A stretch of 64,000 nucleotides of DNA from a plasmid. The notes below the pieces were generated by a model. The model was given only the letters and a program-made list of their open reading frames with translations. It was not told the origin of the DNA and searched no databases. Each line of letters opens with the position of its first letter. Position 1 is the first letter of the stretch. The stretch lies in assembly GCF_053078305.1 (NCBI RefSeq), contig NZ_CP166875.1. One strand, written 5' to 3'. Position numbers and translations under genes: made by a program. Below, piece by piece: positions 21,790-27,902 of the stretch.

Positions 21790-22634
21790 AAATACCTCTG
21801 CTTCAGAATTTATTTTTTAATAATATCACAAATTATAAATTAATAAAGATTCTCATCTGATAAATTTGTTTAATAATCGGCCTCTAAAAAATATATTGTA
21901 TCCACTTTGTTGTGGTTCTGACAGAAGTAAATTAATTTGAAGTAAATAAAGCAAAATATCAGAAGAATATATCGGGGCGCACAGTCTATCTCTGCCTTTG
22001 TTTCATGGGATGTTCTTTGTATATTTTACTTGCTGTTTACTTGCTGTTTACTTGCTGTTTAAGTATGTATATAAGGAGTGCATTCATTATGCCAATGAAG
22101 CTTGTAAAGAAGAATCCCCGGAGCAAAGTGATTCGGGAGCTTAGCTGTGAGCAAGAGATGGCAGTAAAGGCGGTCTGCGGACTGAAAAAACAGCAACTAC
22201 GGCACTACATGCCCTGGCCAATGATCTTCTCCGGGAAATGCGTGAGTATGATGCATGGTTACAGTGTGACTGTATTCCGGGAGATTCGCCGACCATGAAT
22301 TTTGCTGCTCTTAAAAACAACACGGGAACTTTTTATCTGTCCAGTTTGGATATAGATAATTATTGTACTAATAAGGGAAGCCAACACCAGCCGACAGACC
22401 AGACGCCGCTGCTCATTCAGTGAAACGCAGATAAACAGTAAAGCAAATCCAGACTCCAGTACGGAATAATCGTCAGCGGTATTAACGGGATCCGGTGCTC
22501 CCAGTCAAACACCAGGCTGCTGATGTTTTCTCTCCCGGCGGTAAACTGATTCGTCATGCCATAAGTAAGAAAGAAGAATGGGGCCAGCACCATTAGCCAG
22601 CCGATTCCCTGAATAATCACCGCACGCCGCGTTG

Positions 22635-24395
22635 TCATGGTTGACGTCGTACCGCCATAGAGACCGTGAAGATGCCCATTTCATCAATTAGTTGCGTGCA
22701 TTTCTCAAAACCGGCGTCACGGACCAGCGCGTCCATCTCGCCCTGAGTACGTACGCGCATTACCCAGGCTTTGCCATTTTTGTGACTGGTGAGTGACCAG
22801 GCGATGGTTTTTAACTGAGGGTGCCAGGGCTGACAGGTGTAGATCAGAATGCCTCCCGGTTCAATCGCTGCAGCCAGCCCGGCAAGCGAATCTCGTACCG
22901 GCCCGTTTTCCGGGAACAGTTCATACAGACCGGACACGATCCCCAGCGTCGGACGCGGTTCCAGTGCCGCCAGTTCATTACGATTAAAGGCATCCCCCTG
23001 CTCAAATCGCGCACGGCCCACCATACCGCGAGAGGCTATCATCTCCTGACCTTTCGCCACGTTTAATTCGCTGTAATCGCGCAGAAGGATCTCGCTTACC
23101 GCCGTTTCGCCTTGCAGGGCATCAAGCACATAGCGTCCATGCCCGGCGGCAATATCCACGATCCGGACCGAGCTACCCTGCTCTGTTAACCGAGCAACAG
23201 CCTGCTGAATTAACATCTGCAGATGAATTTTACGCTGGCGGATCCCCTTCCAGCCCACGCTATTCAGGTAGTTTTTATCAATGAGGCGCCCCAACGAGGT
23301 GCTGCCCTGAGGCTGGTTGCGATAGATGTAGTCTAGGGTACTGCCGGAATCGAAACCAGTCTCAAATCCCAGACGCACCCCCGTGGACTGCGTGCCCAGC
23401 ACTTTCATCCCGTAGCGCAAACAGCGGTAAGAGATATCGTCCAGCGAATACAGCGCAGGGCCACCGCTCAGTATGCGCCAAGTATCGGCGCTGGGGCTCC
23501 AGCGATCTTCCTGGCTGTAATCAAAACGCTGCACGGGACGGGCATACAAGGTATCAATAAAACTGCGCATCCTGTCAAATGCCAGATGCCGCTCTTTTTC
23601 GCCTAAGGTGTCATGATAAAATCCCGGCAGTACATGCAGTTCTTTCTGCGGATTTCGCAGGTTCTGATAAAAATCAAGCTGCGGCTGGCGGTGCACAACG
23701 TAATCTTCCCCGGAGACCAGCAACTGCACAGGTAGCGTAATGGCGCTGGCATCGCTGACGACTCGCTCAGCCGTTTTGTAGAGATCAAGCAGAATATTCA
23801 CAGCAATTGGTCGGGTAATCAGCGGATCCTTATTGAAGCTTGCCACCCGCTCGGGATCGTGCGTCAGATACTTGCCTTTCACATACGAGTTGACGAAGAA
23901 AAGACCGCGCAGGCGATACATCAATTCCAGCCCCTGGCGAGCAAACGGCACATACAATTTGACCTTAAACGCCGGTGATGCCAACACCAGGCCACGAATG
24001 TCCGGGGCATAATCATGCGCCCAGGTTGCCGCCAGAACCGCCCCGACGCTTTGCGCCACGACGACCACATCCGTCATCCCAGCTTGGCTATCTGCGGCGG
24101 CGAAACGCACAAACTCGTCAACATCCTGCACCGAACGCACGAGCGACGGACTGTAACCACGCAGACCCGGTGAGCGACCATGACCTCGGGCATCCATGGC
24201 ATAAAACGCTGTATCCGGCATCGCCAGCTCATCAACAATGTGTTGCAAACGCCCGGAGTGCTCATGCCCACGATGAAACAGGACCACCACTTTTGGCGTT
24301 GAACTGGCTTCTTGTGCTGGCCAGTGGCGATAAAACAGCTCTGTATTATCACTGGTCAGAAACTGCCGTTCATCGGGTATGCGGGAATTAGTCAT
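22635..24395 (-). CDS. alpha/beta hydrolase - SAM-dependent methyltransferase fusion protein (YnbC-like)
   Basis: 586 aa; hydrolase N-terminal half, methyltransferase-like C-terminal half ([11 protein letters not shown]). Confidence 0.6.
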
Positions 24396-25029
24396 GGGGA
24401 TGATTTCCTTGCGAGGGTTGCAAAAGCGCCGTTAGTCTTTGCTCCAGGTCGTCCATAAACGTTTTCTTCTCCGGATGCGTACTTAGCGCATCGCCAATAT
24501 TTACATCAATAAACAGCGGCAAAGGGATACGATTACCTTTCGCCATCACACGCTCAGTACCGCGCAACCCAACGGGGATAATGGGCACCTCCGGCATGCG
24601 CTGACTCAAATGCCACACTCCGGATTTCAATGGCGCAAGTACGCCTGGCTCACCGCGCGTCCCTTCCGGAAACAGGATCAGTGTTTTACCTTCACGCAGC
24701 GCCTGTTCACATTGCGCCAGCGGATCGGTATAACAGCCCTTTCTTGAAATAGGAATGATGTTAAGGATCTTCAGCGCAAACCAAGCCATGCGTTTATCCC
24801 GCAGAAAATAATCCGCGGCAGCAACCGGATGAACAGAAGCCTGGTAACGCAGCGGAAAAAGCGAAAGCAAGGCGAAAACATCCATATGGCTGTTGTGATT
24901 TGCCACGATTATCGAAGGCCCGTGCTTCGGCAGTCGCTCGCGGTGGCGGACACGCAGACCAAGCCACAGCCAGATGACCGGCCAGACGATACACAGCGTA
25001 AACAGGGTACGGAGTAGTCGTGTCATCAT
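24388..25029 (-). CDS. lysophospholipid acyltransferase (PlsC family)
   Basis: HX4D motif (NHNSHMD) and FPEGTR motif. Confidence 0.7.
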   Translation of the reverse strand: MMTRLLRTLFTLCIVWPVIWLWLGLRVRHRERLPKHGPSIIVANHNSHMDVFALLSLFPLRYQASVHPVAAADYFLRDKRMAWFALKILNIIPISRKGCYTDPLAQCEQALREGKTLILFPEGTRGEPGVLAPLKSGVWHLSQRMPEVPIIPVGLRGTERVMAKGNRIPLPLFIDVNIGDALSTHPEKKTFMDDLEQRLTALLQPSQGNHPHD

Positions 25030-25032
25030 AGG

Positions 25033-25950: not shown

Positions 25951-26558
25951 TTCACACCCTCTTCACGCAATGCGCTGCGACAGCGATTAAAAATCGTCCA
26001 TAACAACAACAGTGTTGCGACACCCCATATGACATTATTCCAGGCGACAATCTGCGGCCAGATCGACAGTGACAGCCCCCATGCACCAAACACCAGCGCT
26101 CTGTCGCTTTTGCCCAGCGGACCGGCATAGCTGCGCACGCCGTTAATCGTTTGCGCCAGCACGCCGCAAAACTCGGTCATCAGCGCACAAAACACCACGA
26201 TCAGCACCAGCGGTATACTGCTCTGCGGGAGTAGCATAAAGGGCAGATAAAGCGAGATGTCGGAAATTACATCACCCGTCTCATTGAGGATGGCCCCCAG
26301 ACGCGATCTTTGATTACATTCACGCGCCAGCATACCATCGAGCGCATTGAGCGCCATTCGTACAAACAACACCACGGGCAGAAGGACGAATAATCCGGGC
26401 TGAGGATGAATAATGAGCACCACGCCGGTGATAAGGGAAAGCACCATCGCGCACAGTGTAATGTGATTAGCGGTGACGCCGCGCCTGTTCAGCCAGAACA
26501 TCAGCGGTCTTAACAGAGCCTGAAACGAGGGCTTTATCTGGTAAAGGGTCATCATCAC
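25947..26558 (-). CDS. CDP-alcohol phosphatidyltransferase
   Basis: Signature DGxxARxxxxxxxxGxxxDxxxD present (LDGMLARECNQRSRLGAILNETGDVISD). Confidence 0.75.
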   Translation of the reverse strand: MMMTLYQIKPSFQALLRPLMFWLNRRGVTANHITLCAMVLSLITGVVLIIHPQPGLFVLLPVVLFVRMALNALDGMLARECNQRSRLGAILNETGDVISDISLYLPFMLLPQSSIPLVLIVVFCALMTEFCGVLAQTINGVRSYAGPLGKSDRALVFGAWGLSLSIWPQIVAWNNVIWGVATLLLLWTIFNRCRSALREEGVK

Positions 26559-27035
26559 TCCTTAATAAGCATATTTGACGGGGTTGAGTCTGGCCTTTTA
26601 TTGGGGCTGTCACTGGCACACTGAAAGTGAATACAGTTCCGGGCGCGGAAATCCTGCCTGCTGCGCCGGTAAAGGCGACTGACTGGTATTACGGGAGGCC
26701 AGAGAGCCAGTACCTGTGCCGGTAGACTGTGTGGCTGAACCATAAACATAGTGTCCTGGACAACGGTACAGCACTCTGTGCAGCTGTGTCAGCATGCGCT
26801 TTTCTTTAATTATGCCCAGTCATGTGCGGAGGCAAGGATTTCAAAATATCCGTTACATTTGTTGCATGATGCCTTATCGCTGGTCCGGGCTATTGCTTTA
26901 CTTCTTTTAAATCAGCTCTGATGAACATTTTTTACCACTTTATCGCATTAAGGTTATGTCATTCATCGTCTGGCATCACGTTTTTGGTTATGGTGTCAGG
27001 GTGTACCCTACCGCGATAACGCAACCCTAATAAAG

Positions 27036-27902
27036 TCATTCGATGGCATATTTCTTATTGAGAATATATACGCATAAAATAGTTATAAAAACGCCTAGTC
27101 CCTGAATAAATGATATATCTTCCTGCAGGAAGAACCAGGACAACAGCAATGCTACCAGAGGAATAAAATAGAGCATTGCTCCTGCTATGTGAACGGGAAT
27201 CCAGCGTAGGGAATAAAGATAGAAACAAAAAGCCAAAAAATATTGTAAAATTCCTGACAAAAACACAAGAAATACAGATTCTATTGGCAGTTGCAGGGAT
27301 GTGCCAGTTAGAACAATAAAAAAACAAGCAAGAATAAAAGAGAAAGTCAACTGCCCGGTTAACAACGTAACAGGCTCAAAATTCACAATAAGTCGTGATG
27401 AGATAACAACATAAAAGGATGCTGAGAGTACACCTGCAACAATAAGTATATATCCTGTAATATTATCAATGCGGTCATTGATATCAGGTAGGGCAACCAT
27501 TATACTGCCTGCCATTGCTCCAGCAAGCAATAATATAAAGTGTAATGGTGAGTTAATTTTAACGGAAAATAATATAACAGATAGTATAAGAATAAATACT
27601 GACTCAAGTGAAAAAATAACAGCTGTTATACCAGCAGAAATAAATTTTAGGCCATAGAGAGTGAATGTATACGCCAGAAATGGCTCAAAAATTCCTGTTG
27701 AATAGGCAAGGATTGATTTTTTTGTTACCGGGAGTTTTTTTCTGCTAATTGCGAGAACAAACCATGATAACATTGCAGCACTACCAACTTGCCAGAAAAA
27801 CAACTCTCCGGCATCCATGTTTTCGAGACCTTTTTTGCTCATCACTATTGCTGCTCCCCATGAAAAAGCAGCAAGAAATGCAAACATAATTCCCTTAATC
27901 AT
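27036..27902 (-). CDS. EamA/DMT-family membrane transporter
   Basis: 288 aa, ~10 hydrophobic segments, AT-rich. Confidence 0.6.
   Translation of the reverse strand: MIKGIMFAFLAAFSWGAAIVMSKKGLENMDAGELFFWQVGSAAMLSWFVLAISRKKLPVTKKSILAYSTGIFEPFLAYTFTLYGLKFISAGITAVIFSLESVFILILSVILFSVKINSPLHFILLLAGAMAGSIMVALPDINDRIDNITGYILIVAGVLSASFYVVISSRLIVNFEPVTLLTGQLTFSFILACFFIVLTGTSLQLPIESVFLVFLSGILQYFLAFCFYLYSLRWIPVHIAGAMLYFIPLVALLLSWFFLQEDISFIQGLGVFITILCVYILNKKYAIE

What the first reader, a model, noticed from the sequence alone, without database searches (positions are those of the whole stretch)
22417..27902. Plasmid-borne phospholipid-metabolism-like operon with adjacent EamA transporter
Four co-directional overlapping genes: CDP-alcohol phosphatidyltransferase (signature motif present), CdsA-like cytidylyltransferase, PlsC-type acyltransferase (HX4D), and a 586-aa hydrolase-methyltransferase fusion. 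A 73-codon membrane ORF at 22417-22638 overlaps the operon end and may be a truncated fifth gene. I recall a chromosomal ynbABCD locus of similar composition in E. coli K-12. On a plasmid this could make an unusual head-group-modified lipid that alters the envelope.
Basis: partly seen in the sequence, partly recalled or inferred. Interest (0 to 1): 0.5.

Follow-up and report, generated by a model that had tools for sequence, protein, structure and literature searches.

The report
Mobilised, truncated ynb lipid-gene operon
An E. coli IncF plasmid carries a copy of a poorly understood chromosomal lipid-enzyme operon (the ynb locus) that was captured from a Phytobacter-like bacterium and has since lost its last two genes, so it is a real but fairly ordinary and probably incomplete piece of plasmid cargo.

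Summary
The four overlapping genes and the 73-codon ORF are real and on an IncF plasmid. They are a xenolog of E. coli K-12 ynbABCD (59-76% aa identity, dS saturated), not a copy of it. DNA 22370-26602 is 93% identical to the Phytobacter ursingii chromosome, where the locus is ydbH-[A-B-PlsC-C-D-X]-azoR. This six-gene form is standard in 16 of 19 chromosomal loci examined. K-12 has lost PlsC and X. Fusion proteins in distant bacteria (YnbA+YnbC, YnbA+PlsC) show the genes form one module. The locus travelled with a resolvase/Tn3-type element (Citrobacter and Enterobacter plasmids, Vibrio fluvialis chromosome). Here both ends are eroded. The fifth gene (PAP2_3+DSP phosphatase, 428 aa when intact) has a 10-bp frameshifting deletion and is cut off at 22370, and X and the resolvase are gone. 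Three related E. coli plasmids carry other lesions. The "signature motif" is a family-wide variant: Asp1 and Asp3 are Asn. The EamA/DMT gene is an unrelated backbone neighbour. The product is unknown. The best guess is a CDP-diacylglycerol-dependent side pathway to a minor lipid, incomplete here. Interest is low to moderate.

The parts
25947..26552 (-). ynbA-type CDP-alcohol phosphatidyltransferase-family gene (201 aa from ATG 26552; the ORF extends to GTG 26558). Variant motif NALDGMLAR-x8-GAILNETGD.
   Evidence: 71% to K-12 YnbA, 88% to the Citrobacter plasmid copy; aligned to Mtb PgsA1 6H53; N..N in 112 of 115 family representatives; RBS AAGGAG.
25033..25950 (-). ynbB-type CdsA paralog (305 aa), a putative CDP-diacylglycerol synthase.
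   Evidence: PRK11624, 89.6 bits, below the 385 equivalog cut-off; 61% to K-12 YnbB; signature SAIKRDxGVKDSGxLLPGHGGxLDRxD aligned to TmCdsA 4Q2G.
24388..25029 (-). PlsC/LPLAT-family acyltransferase (213 aa). K-12 ynbABCD has no counterpart.
   Evidence: no K-12 hit; HX4D and FPEGTR aligned to TmPlsC 5KYM; same position in chromosomal loci; YnbA-PlsC fusion protein.
22635..24395 (-). ynbC-type bifunctional protein (586 aa): monoacylglycerol-lipase-like serine hydrolase (res. ~35-268) plus Methyltransf_20 SAM methyltransferase (res. 276-583).
22370..22638 (-). Remnant of the ynbD-type PAP2_3+DSPc phosphatase gene. The 73-codon ORF is 22417-22638. A 10-bp deletion between 22438 and 22439 shifts the frame. 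Homology to intact copies ends at 22370.
   Evidence: alignment with the Citrobacter, Enterobacter and E. coli 2015C copies; intact protein = PAP2_3 + DSPc; blastn end points.
26553..26602 (-). Native leader with RBS, retained from the chromosomal (Phytobacter-type) locus.
   Evidence: homology to L017/L018 ends at window 26602..
26603..26915 (-). Upstream region specific to the mobile version. It is shared with the Citrobacter and Enterobacter plasmids and the V. fluvialis copy, where it leads to a resolvase gene. It has no strong sigma-70 consensus promoter and contains a probably spurious 61-codon ORF.
   Evidence: (homology to L003 ends at 26915, to L002 at 26879, to L015 at 26862).

Best explanation
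What it is (shown). The segment 22370-26915 is an eroded remnant of a mobilised chromosomal ynb locus. In Phytobacter and most Enterobacterales the locus has six genes: ynbA-type phosphatidyltransferase, ynbB-type CDP-DAG synthase, a PlsC-type acyltransferase, a ynbC-type lipase+methyltransferase, a ynbD-type PAP2+DSP phosphatase, and a small membrane ORF X. It lies between ydbH-ynbE and azoR-hrpA. A Phytobacter-type copy was captured next to a resolvase/Tn3-family transposon. It spread to Citrobacter, Enterobacter and E. coli plasmids and to a Vibrio fluvialis chromosome. In this IncF plasmid the resolvase side and the D/X side have been deleted. A, B, PlsC and C remain intact.

How it most likely works (inferred from family chemistry).
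1. The PlsC-type enzyme acylates a lyso-lipid to phosphatidate.
2. The YnbB-type enzyme activates it to CDP-diacylglycerol. K-12 YnbB does this in vitro.
3. The YnbA-type enzyme transfers the phosphatidyl group to an unknown, probably phosphorylated, acceptor. It keeps Asp2 and the catalytic-base Asp4 but has Asn at the two other metal ligands, and it lacks the inositol-phosphate-binding Arg.
4. The missing YnbD phosphatase would dephosphorylate the product.
5. YnbC would deacylate and/or methylate it.

Without D and X the plasmid pathway is incomplete unless the host's own chromosomal YnbD (about 56-59% identical) substitutes. Expression is probably low or depends on read-through from the upstream DMT gene.
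For: Identity:
- 59-76% to K-12 YnbA-D.
- domains and motifs.

Origin:
- 93.0% nt over 4243 bp to P. ursingii ATCC 27989T, with full synteny. The next genera are 76-78%.
- L017.
- A-B-P-C-D-X in 16 of 19 chromosomal loci.

One module:
- fusion proteins A+C and A+PlsC, with DSPc, acyltransferase and CdsA-like neighbours.
-.

Mobility:
- Citrobacter plasmid and V. fluvialis share 97-99% nt, including a 96.8%-identical resolvase.
- Tn3 transposase adjacent.

Erosion:
- 10-bp deletion and breakpoint.
- independent lesions in the three related E. coli plasmids.

Selection history:
- dN/dS 0.06-0.33; dS against K-12 above 2.
- no excess of substitutions at conserved sites.

Chemistry:
- PMC7018664 and PMC6362211: YnbB makes CDP-DAG in vitro and supports MPIase but not bulk phospholipid synthesis.
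- PMC6506517: roles of the four Asp residues and R94.
- PMC4951805: ynbC/ynbD are E. coli core genes, so the host probably has its own locus.
Against: - No product of any ynb locus is described in the papers searched, so every biochemical step beyond YnbB is inference.
- Two of the four metal-binding Asp residues in YnbA are Asn, so the reaction may differ from a standard phosphatidyl transfer.
- The methyltransferase fold search gave no substrate clue.
- No promoter was detected, and regulation cannot be transferred from K-12 because the upstream regions do not align.
- The donor is inferred from one species representative plus one metagenome scaffold. An unsampled closer relative could exist.
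- The transposon itself is not present in this window.
Confidence: 0.72

Rival explanations
1. Dead cargo. The operon is transcriptionally silent and functionally irrelevant on this plasmid, a decaying passenger with no effect on the host.
For: - D is frameshifted and truncated, and X and the resolvase are lost.
- Each of the three related E. coli plasmids has a different lesion.
- No sigma-70-like promoter upstream.
- The K-12 homolog's promoter needed BglJ-RcsB for activation in reporter assays (PMC3950696).
- A K-12 ynbB knockout grows like its parent (PMC6362211).
Against: - A, B, PlsC and C are full length with catalytic motifs intact, and C shows no excess of changes at conserved sites.
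- An identical YnbC sequence stands for 125 member sequences in the protein collection, so the plasmid lineage is not rare.
- Read-through from the co-directional DMT gene is possible.
Confidence: 0.4
2. MPIase booster. As reported for K-12 YnbB, the plasmid YnbB-type enzyme, perhaps with the YnbA-type enzyme, raises synthesis of GlcNAc-PP-diacylglycerol, the first intermediate of the glycolipid MPIase. This would aid membrane protein insertion, for example in the cold.
For: - K-12 YnbB overproduction raises MPIase and restores it when CdsA is depleted (PMC6362211, PMC7018664).
- ynbB and cdsA are up-regulated in the cold (PMC11413397).
- The catalytic C-terminal half of YnbB is conserved here.
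- A phosphate acceptor might tolerate the altered metal site of YnbA (inference only).
Against: - Only 61% identity to K-12 YnbB.
- A ynbB knockout leaves MPIase unchanged, and its effect is described as marginal or auxiliary (PMC6362211).
- This reading does not explain the lipase/methyltransferase, the acyltransferase or the phosphatase.
- In the MPIase/YnbB papers read here, ynbA, ynbC and ynbD are not mentioned.
Confidence: 0.12
3. A functional five-gene operon plus the adjacent EamA transporter forms one unit that makes and exports or positions a modified lipid, changing susceptibility to peptides, colicins or phage.
For: - Same strand and proximity to the DMT gene.
- The enzyme families are lipid-related.
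- The plasmid also carries colicin genes.
Against: - DMT GC is 36% against 52%.
- DMT is present on more than 1000 plasmids lacking the operon, where it pairs with a different upstream gene.
- No DMT gene occurs next to any chromosomal or other mobile ynb locus.
- Backbone homology resumes only at 27018.
- The fifth gene is truncated.
Confidence: 0.05

Closest known systems
E. coli K-12 ynbABCD (b1408-b1411)
   Same: - Same four protein families in the same order.
- 71%, 61%, 75.5% and about 59% aa identity.
- Same N..N variant motif in YnbA.
- Same Hydrolase_4+Methyltransf_20 and PAP2_3+DSPc architectures.
   Different: - The plasmid locus has a PlsC-type acyltransferase between B and C, which K-12 lacks.
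- K-12 also lacks ORF X.
- The plasmid D gene is truncated.
- dS is saturated, so this is an old xenolog and not a duplicate.
- The upstream regulatory DNA is unrelated.
- The location is a plasmid, not the azoR-hrpA neighbourhood.
Phytobacter ursingii chromosomal ynb locus (ydbH-ynbE-[A-B-PlsC-C-D-X]-azoR-hrpA)
   Same: - 93.0% nt identity over window 22370-26602.
- 89-96% aa identity for A, B, PlsC and C.
- Identical gene order and overlaps.
   Different: - The chromosomal locus is intact, with a 428-aa D and a 136-aa X.
- It has its own upstream region.
- The window copy lacks most of D, all of X, and the native DNA more than about 50 bp upstream of A.
Resolvase/Tn3-associated mobile ynb unit (Citrobacter sp. 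TSA-1 plasmid NZ_CP053574, Enterobacter asburiae mcr-10 plasmid NZ_OK264410, Vibrio fluvialis chromosome)
   Same: - 91-95% nt identity, including the mobile-specific upstream region to about 26880-26915.
   Different: - Those copies retain D and X.
- The Citrobacter and Vibrio copies retain the resolvase, and the Citrobacter plasmid also has the Tn3-family transposase.
- The V. fluvialis copy has its own deletion, removing the 3' part of B and most of PlsC.
- The window has neither resolvase nor transposase attached to the segment.
Bacterial phosphatidylinositol-phosphate synthase pathway (PgsA1/PIPS + PIP phosphatase)
   Same: - Nearest solved structures and nearest NCBIfam models for YnbA are PIP or archaetidylinositol-phosphate synthases.
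- The logic of a CDP-DAG transferase followed by a phosphatase is analogous.
   Different: - Scores are below the family cut-offs (49-69 bits against 170-180).
- Asp1 and Asp3 of the motif are Asn.
- The Arg needed for inositol-phosphate binding (R94 in PgsA1) is Val.
- No inositol-phosphate synthase gene lies in or next to the locus.

Membership tests
ynb locus (ynbABCD-type module) | YnbA-type CDP-OH_P_transf protein with the N-x2-DG-x2-AR-x8-G-x3-N-x3-D motif | tested here: met
ynb locus (ynbABCD-type module) | YnbB-type CdsA paralog, translationally coupled downstream of A | tested here: met
   4-nt overlap. 61% identity to K-12 YnbB.
ynb locus (ynbABCD-type module) | YnbC-type Hydrolase_4 + Methyltransf_20 fusion protein | tested here: met
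ynb locus (ynbABCD-type module) | Intact YnbD-type PAP2_3 + DSPc phosphatase | tested here: not met
   Only about 90 codons of homologous DNA remain. The frame is shifted after codon ~66, giving a 73-codon ORF.
ynb locus (ynbABCD-type module) | Chromosomal position between ydbH-ynbE(-ydbL) and azoR-hrpA | tested here: not met
   The window is an IncF plasmid. The progenitor type has this synteny.
Canonical CDP-alcohol phosphatidyltransferase (PF01066) | Sequence homology to the family | tested here: met
   Pfam PF01066 on orthologs.
Canonical CDP-alcohol phosphatidyltransferase (PF01066) | Full signature D-x2-D-G-x2-A-R-x8-G-x3-D-x3-D (four Asp residues binding two metals) | tested here: not met
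   Asp1 and Asp3 are Asn. This is family-wide. Residue roles from PMC6506517.
PIP synthase (PgsA1/PIPS equivalog) | Score above the NCBIfam cut-off and the conserved acceptor-binding Arg after Asp4 | tested here: not met
   (49.4 against 170 bits; 69.1 against 180). (Val in place of R94).
CdsA (phosphatidate cytidylyltransferase equivalog) | C-terminal signature and equivalog-level score | tested here: inconclusive
   The signature is present, but the score is 89.6 against a cut-off of 385. It is a paralog, as for K-12 YnbB.
PlsC/LPLAT acyltransferases | HX4D catalytic motif and FPEGTR block | tested here: met
   (aligned to 5KYM). Below the equivalog cut-offs, so substrate specificity is unknown.
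Tn3-family transposon cargo | Adjacent resolvase and Tn3-family transposase of the same element | tested here: not met
   They are present next to the Citrobacter copy, and the resolvase next to the Vibrio copy. In the window only the upstream spacer survives. The window's own two resolvases are about 34% identical over a 38-aa stretch, so they are unrelated.
Operon-linked EamA/DMT exporter | Conserved co-occurrence of the transporter with the operon | tested here: not met

The most novel reading that the evidence does not exclude
The conserved A-B-PlsC-C-D-X module makes a membrane lipid that has not been described. Its phosphatidyltransferase carries a family-wide Asn/Asn version of the metal-binding motif. 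One possible product has a pyrophosphate-linked or methylated head group, such as a GlcNAc-PP-diacylglycerol-type precursor. On this reading the four plasmid genes, helped by the host's own YnbD, change envelope composition and give the plasmid-bearing E. coli a selectable phenotype.
Probability: 0.1. Interest if true: 0.65.

Novelty: new member of a known kind. Interest (0 to 1): 0.3.

Why it matters
For this plasmid it matters little. The segment is a partly decayed passenger whose genes RefSeq already names generically.

The wider value lies in what the comparison shows about the ynb locus:
- The PlsC-type acyltransferase and a small sixth ORF are ancestral members of the module.
- The much-studied K-12 version is a reduced form.
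- YnbA enzymes share an unusual Asn/Asn active-site motif.
- An intact Phytobacter-type six-gene locus exists on mobile elements.

These points give a better-defined gene set, and a natural four-gene versus six-gene pair, for anyone trying to find the lipid made by the ynb genes.

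Tried and rejected
- **Promoter and terminator scan of 21.8-28.3 kb:** no convincing promoter upstream of A, and counts were not above shuffles.
- **Alignment of upstream regions of plasmid and chromosomal loci, plus the BglJ-RcsB paper:** nothing aligns beyond the RBS, so K-12 regulation cannot be transferred. The published logo is not given as text, so it was not scanned.
- **Repeat search around the segment and inspection of the 22370 junction:** no IS ends, target duplications or flanking inverted repeats. 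The truncation is a plain breakpoint.
- **Literature searches for ynbABCD, PF12147/Methyltransf_20 and the enzyme combination:** no functional study of the module.
- **PDB sequence search of intact YnbD:** generic DSP/PTP hits, with PTPMT1 only weak (E 2e-3). This is suggestive of a lipid-phosphate phosphatase but not decisive.
- **PADLOC on neighbouring genes:** relevant only to an unrelated viperin cluster.
- **Idea that the window's own Tn3-family elements carried the operon:** rejected, because their resolvases are unrelated to the one linked to the operon elsewhere.
- **Idea that the plasmid YnbC is degenerating:** rejected.

Full report
**Observation.** The minus strand of the window carries four tightly packed ORFs.
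- A: 25947-26558. The likely true start is ATG 26552, giving 201 aa, behind an AAGGAG RBS.
- B: 25033-25950.
- P: 24388-25029.
- C: 22635-24395.
- A 73-codon ORF at 22417-22638 overlaps the end of C by 4 nt.

- A is a CDP-alcohol phosphatidyltransferase-family protein.
- B is a CdsA-like cytidylyltransferase whose C-terminal signature aligns to Thermotoga CdsA 4Q2G.
- P is a PlsC/LPLAT acyltransferase with HX4D and FPEGTR aligned to TmPlsC 5KYM.
- C is Hydrolase_4 (E 1e-68) fused to Methyltransf_20 (E 1e-143).

The surrounding DNA is unmistakably IncF plasmid. It has IncFII repA, CopA, FinP with the traJ leader, two sok RNAs, parM, ParB and colicin B/M.

**Relation to K-12 ynbABCD.** Direct blastp against the K-12 locus (fetched) gives 71% (YnbA), 61% (YnbB), 75.5% (YnbC) and 59% (YnbD, over the fragment). 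There is no K-12 counterpart for P. Synonymous divergence from K-12 is saturated (dS > 2). The plasmid genes are therefore an old xenolog and not a duplicate of the host locus.

**The fifth gene.** A Citrobacter sp. TSA-1 plasmid carries an intact version of the operon. Its fifth gene encodes a 428-aa PAP2_3 + DSPc phosphatase and is followed by a 136-aa ORF X.

Alignment shows that the window's copy matches this gene for about 265 nt. It then has a 10-bp deletion, between 22438 and 22439, that shifts the frame and produces the 73-codon ORF. It loses all homology at 22370. No IS end or repeat marks that junction. The DNA to the left is IncF backbone: a yagA-like fragment and a ProQ/FinO-family gene.

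**The six-gene form is ancestral.**
- Homologs of P at 72-85% identity are chromosomal in Citrobacter, Buttiauxella, Hafnia, Chania and Serratia.
- In C. rodentium, Hafnia and Serratia oryzae they sit in the order A-B-P-C-D-X. In C. rodentium the locus is next to azoR-hrpA, which is the K-12 ynb position.
- A tblastn table over all fetched loci shows A-B-P-C-D-X in 16 of 19 chromosomal loci from Enterobacterales and Snodgrassella. The exceptions are K-12 (no P, no X), Klebsiella spallanzanii (no P) and a fragmentary Mixta locus.
- In distant bacteria the same components occur as fusion proteins. One is an 807-aa YnbA+Hydrolase_4+Methyltransf_20 protein followed by DSPc, acyltransferase and CdsA-like genes. 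Another is a 436-aa YnbA+PlsC protein followed by a CdsA-like gene. An A-B-PlsC trio occurs in a third contig.

The acyltransferase is thus an integral member of one functional module, and K-12 ynbABCD is a reduced derivative.

**Origin and mobility.** The single scan of species-representative genomes found Phytobacter ursingii ATCC 27989T as the closest relative, at 95% aa for C.
- At the DNA level, window 22370-26602 is 93.0% identical over 4243 bp to its chromosome. The locus there is intact and lies between ydbH and azoR.
- A metagenome scaffold that is 97% identical to P. ursingii shows the same arrangement.
- Buttiauxella and Citrobacter are only 76-78% identical.
- Homology to the chromosome stops about 50 bp upstream of A.

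From 26603 to about 26915 the window matches only the mobile copies.
- The Citrobacter plasmid copy and a copy in the Vibrio fluvialis chromosome share 97-99% identical DNA from X through a 96.8%-identical resolvase.
- In Citrobacter a Tn3-family transposase follows the resolvase.
- An Enterobacter asburiae mcr-10 plasmid has the same unit.

The simplest history is capture of a Phytobacter-type locus by a Tn3-family element and spread among plasmids. In this window the resolvase side is gone. IncF backbone resumes at 27018. The window's own two Tn3-family elements have unrelated resolvases.

**State of preservation.** In PLSDB and RefSeq only two E. coli plasmids carry most of the segment.
- pFHI_NMBU_11_02 has a frameshifted A.
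- The 2015C-3121 plasmid has D cut by IS66.
- A third plasmid, pSTEC2018_553-a, keeps only the upstream region and about 60 bp of A next to IS91.

So every E. coli plasmid relative found in these collections is damaged, each in a different way. Against complete decay:
- A, B, P and C in the window are full length.
- dN/dS against the Citrobacter and Enterobacter copies is 0.06-0.33.
- C deviates at only 6 of 363 conserved columns, within the 0-14 range of other close homologs.
- An identical C sequence represents 125 member sequences in the protein collection.

**The "signature motif".** Alignment to M. tuberculosis PIP synthase PgsA1 (6H53) shows that the motif D1-x2-D2-G-x2-A-R-x8-G-x3-D3-x3-D4 reads NALDGMLAR-x8-GAILNETGD here. 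K-12 YnbA has the same changes. So do 112 of 115 matched representatives of the family at the 50% clustering level.

In PgsA1, D1, D2 and D3 bind Mg-1, D3 and D4 bind Mg-2, D4 is the presumed catalytic base, and R94 after D4 is key for inositol-phosphate (PMC6506517). YnbA proteins keep D2 and D4, replace D1 and D3 by Asn, and have Val for R94. They are therefore a distinct subfamily with an altered metal site and probably a different acceptor.

**Function.** The literature in the searchable library gives function only for K-12 YnbB.
- It makes CDP-DAG in vitro.
- It cannot replace CdsA for bulk phospholipid synthesis.
- It supports synthesis of the MPIase precursor GlcNAc-PP-DAG.
- It is dispensable (PMC6362211, PMC7018664, PMC11413397).
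- The ynbA promoter is activated by BglJ-RcsB (PMC3950696).

No paper describes the module as a whole.

From this I infer a self-contained CDP-DAG-dependent branch:
1. acylation (P),
2. activation (B),
3. phosphatidyl transfer to an unknown, probably phosphorylated acceptor (A),
4. dephosphorylation (D, missing here),
5. remodelling or methylation (C).

Steps other than B's activity are inference.

**The EamA/DMT gene.** It has 36% GC against 52% for the operon. It is present on more than 1000 plasmids without the operon. In typical backbones it is coupled to a different upstream gene. It is never found next to chromosomal or other mobile ynb loci. It is an unrelated neighbour. Being co-directional and upstream, it could supply read-through transcription (inference).

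**Verdict.** It is wrong about the transporter link, and the envelope phenotype is untested. The feature is a new, mobilised and eroded member of a known but functionally unsolved locus. Interest is low to moderate. Its main use is as comparative evidence defining the complete ynb module.

Noticed in passing
window 16005-17575 (-), with nudI further downstream: A 288-aa radical-SAM protein matches PADLOC pVip 'viperins associated with kinases' (E 1.6e-30). It overlaps a P-loop nucleotide kinase gene, with a NudI Nudix hydrolase gene next to it. This looks like a plasmid-borne prokaryotic viperin-type anti-phage cluster.
   Followed up: partly
window 11126-14902 and 28780-32359: There are two separate Tn3-family transposase/serine-recombinase pairs. 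One lies in a very low-GC (32-37%) block. Their resolvases are only 35% identical to each other and unrelated to the resolvase that travels with the ynb unit elsewhere.
   Followed up: partly
YnbA family in general (P0241-P0390); window 26340-26420 region of gene A: The Asn/Asn replacement of Asp1 and Asp3 in the CDP-alcohol transferase motif is conserved across about 97% of diverse YnbA-family representatives. I found no paper discussing it.
   Followed up: partly
L015 and L016 (Vibrio fluvialis), about 7610-8008: The V. fluvialis copy of the mobile ynb unit sits in a chromosome-like context near ATP synthase genes. It has its own internal deletion that removes the 3' two-thirds of B and most of PlsC, leaving A, C, D and X intact.
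   Followed up: partly
L007 (Citrobacter rodentium) 5647-6081; L028 (Klebsiella spallanzanii); L024 (Mixta tenebrionis): Independent erosion of chromosomal ynb loci. C. rodentium ynbA matches over only 44% of its length. K. spallanzanii lacks PlsC. The Mixta locus is fragmentary.
   Followed up: no
L027 and L030: Contigs labelled 'Chryseobacterium sp. 18061' and 'Citrobacter sp. 18056' give the same hit coordinates and identities for all six ynb genes. This suggests the same organism, or cross-contamination or mislabelling of one assembly.
   Followed up: no
window 22025-22061: An 11-bp unit within TTTACTTGCTGTTTA repeats three times in tandem, just upstream of the yagA-like fragment beside the truncation junction.
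   Followed up: no
window 27895-28077: In typical IncF backbones the DMT gene is preceded by an overlapping 355-aa hypothetical gene. Here only a 60-codon stub remains, so the DMT neighbourhood is itself rearranged.
   Followed up: no
window 19476-20960 (+): A 494-aa alpha/beta hydrolase with an apparent N-terminal signal peptide lies next to a ProQ/FinO-family gene. It has only a weak prolyl-aminopeptidase-like match, and its function is unknown.
   Followed up: no
L003 (Enterobacter asburiae pN211785FRI) 13467-16053: On that plasmid the mobile ynb unit lies about 1.3 kb from an ISEc36 element and an mcr-10.1 colistin-resistance gene. A lipid-enzyme operon thus sits beside a lipid A-modifying gene, which is probably coincidental.
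   Followed up: no
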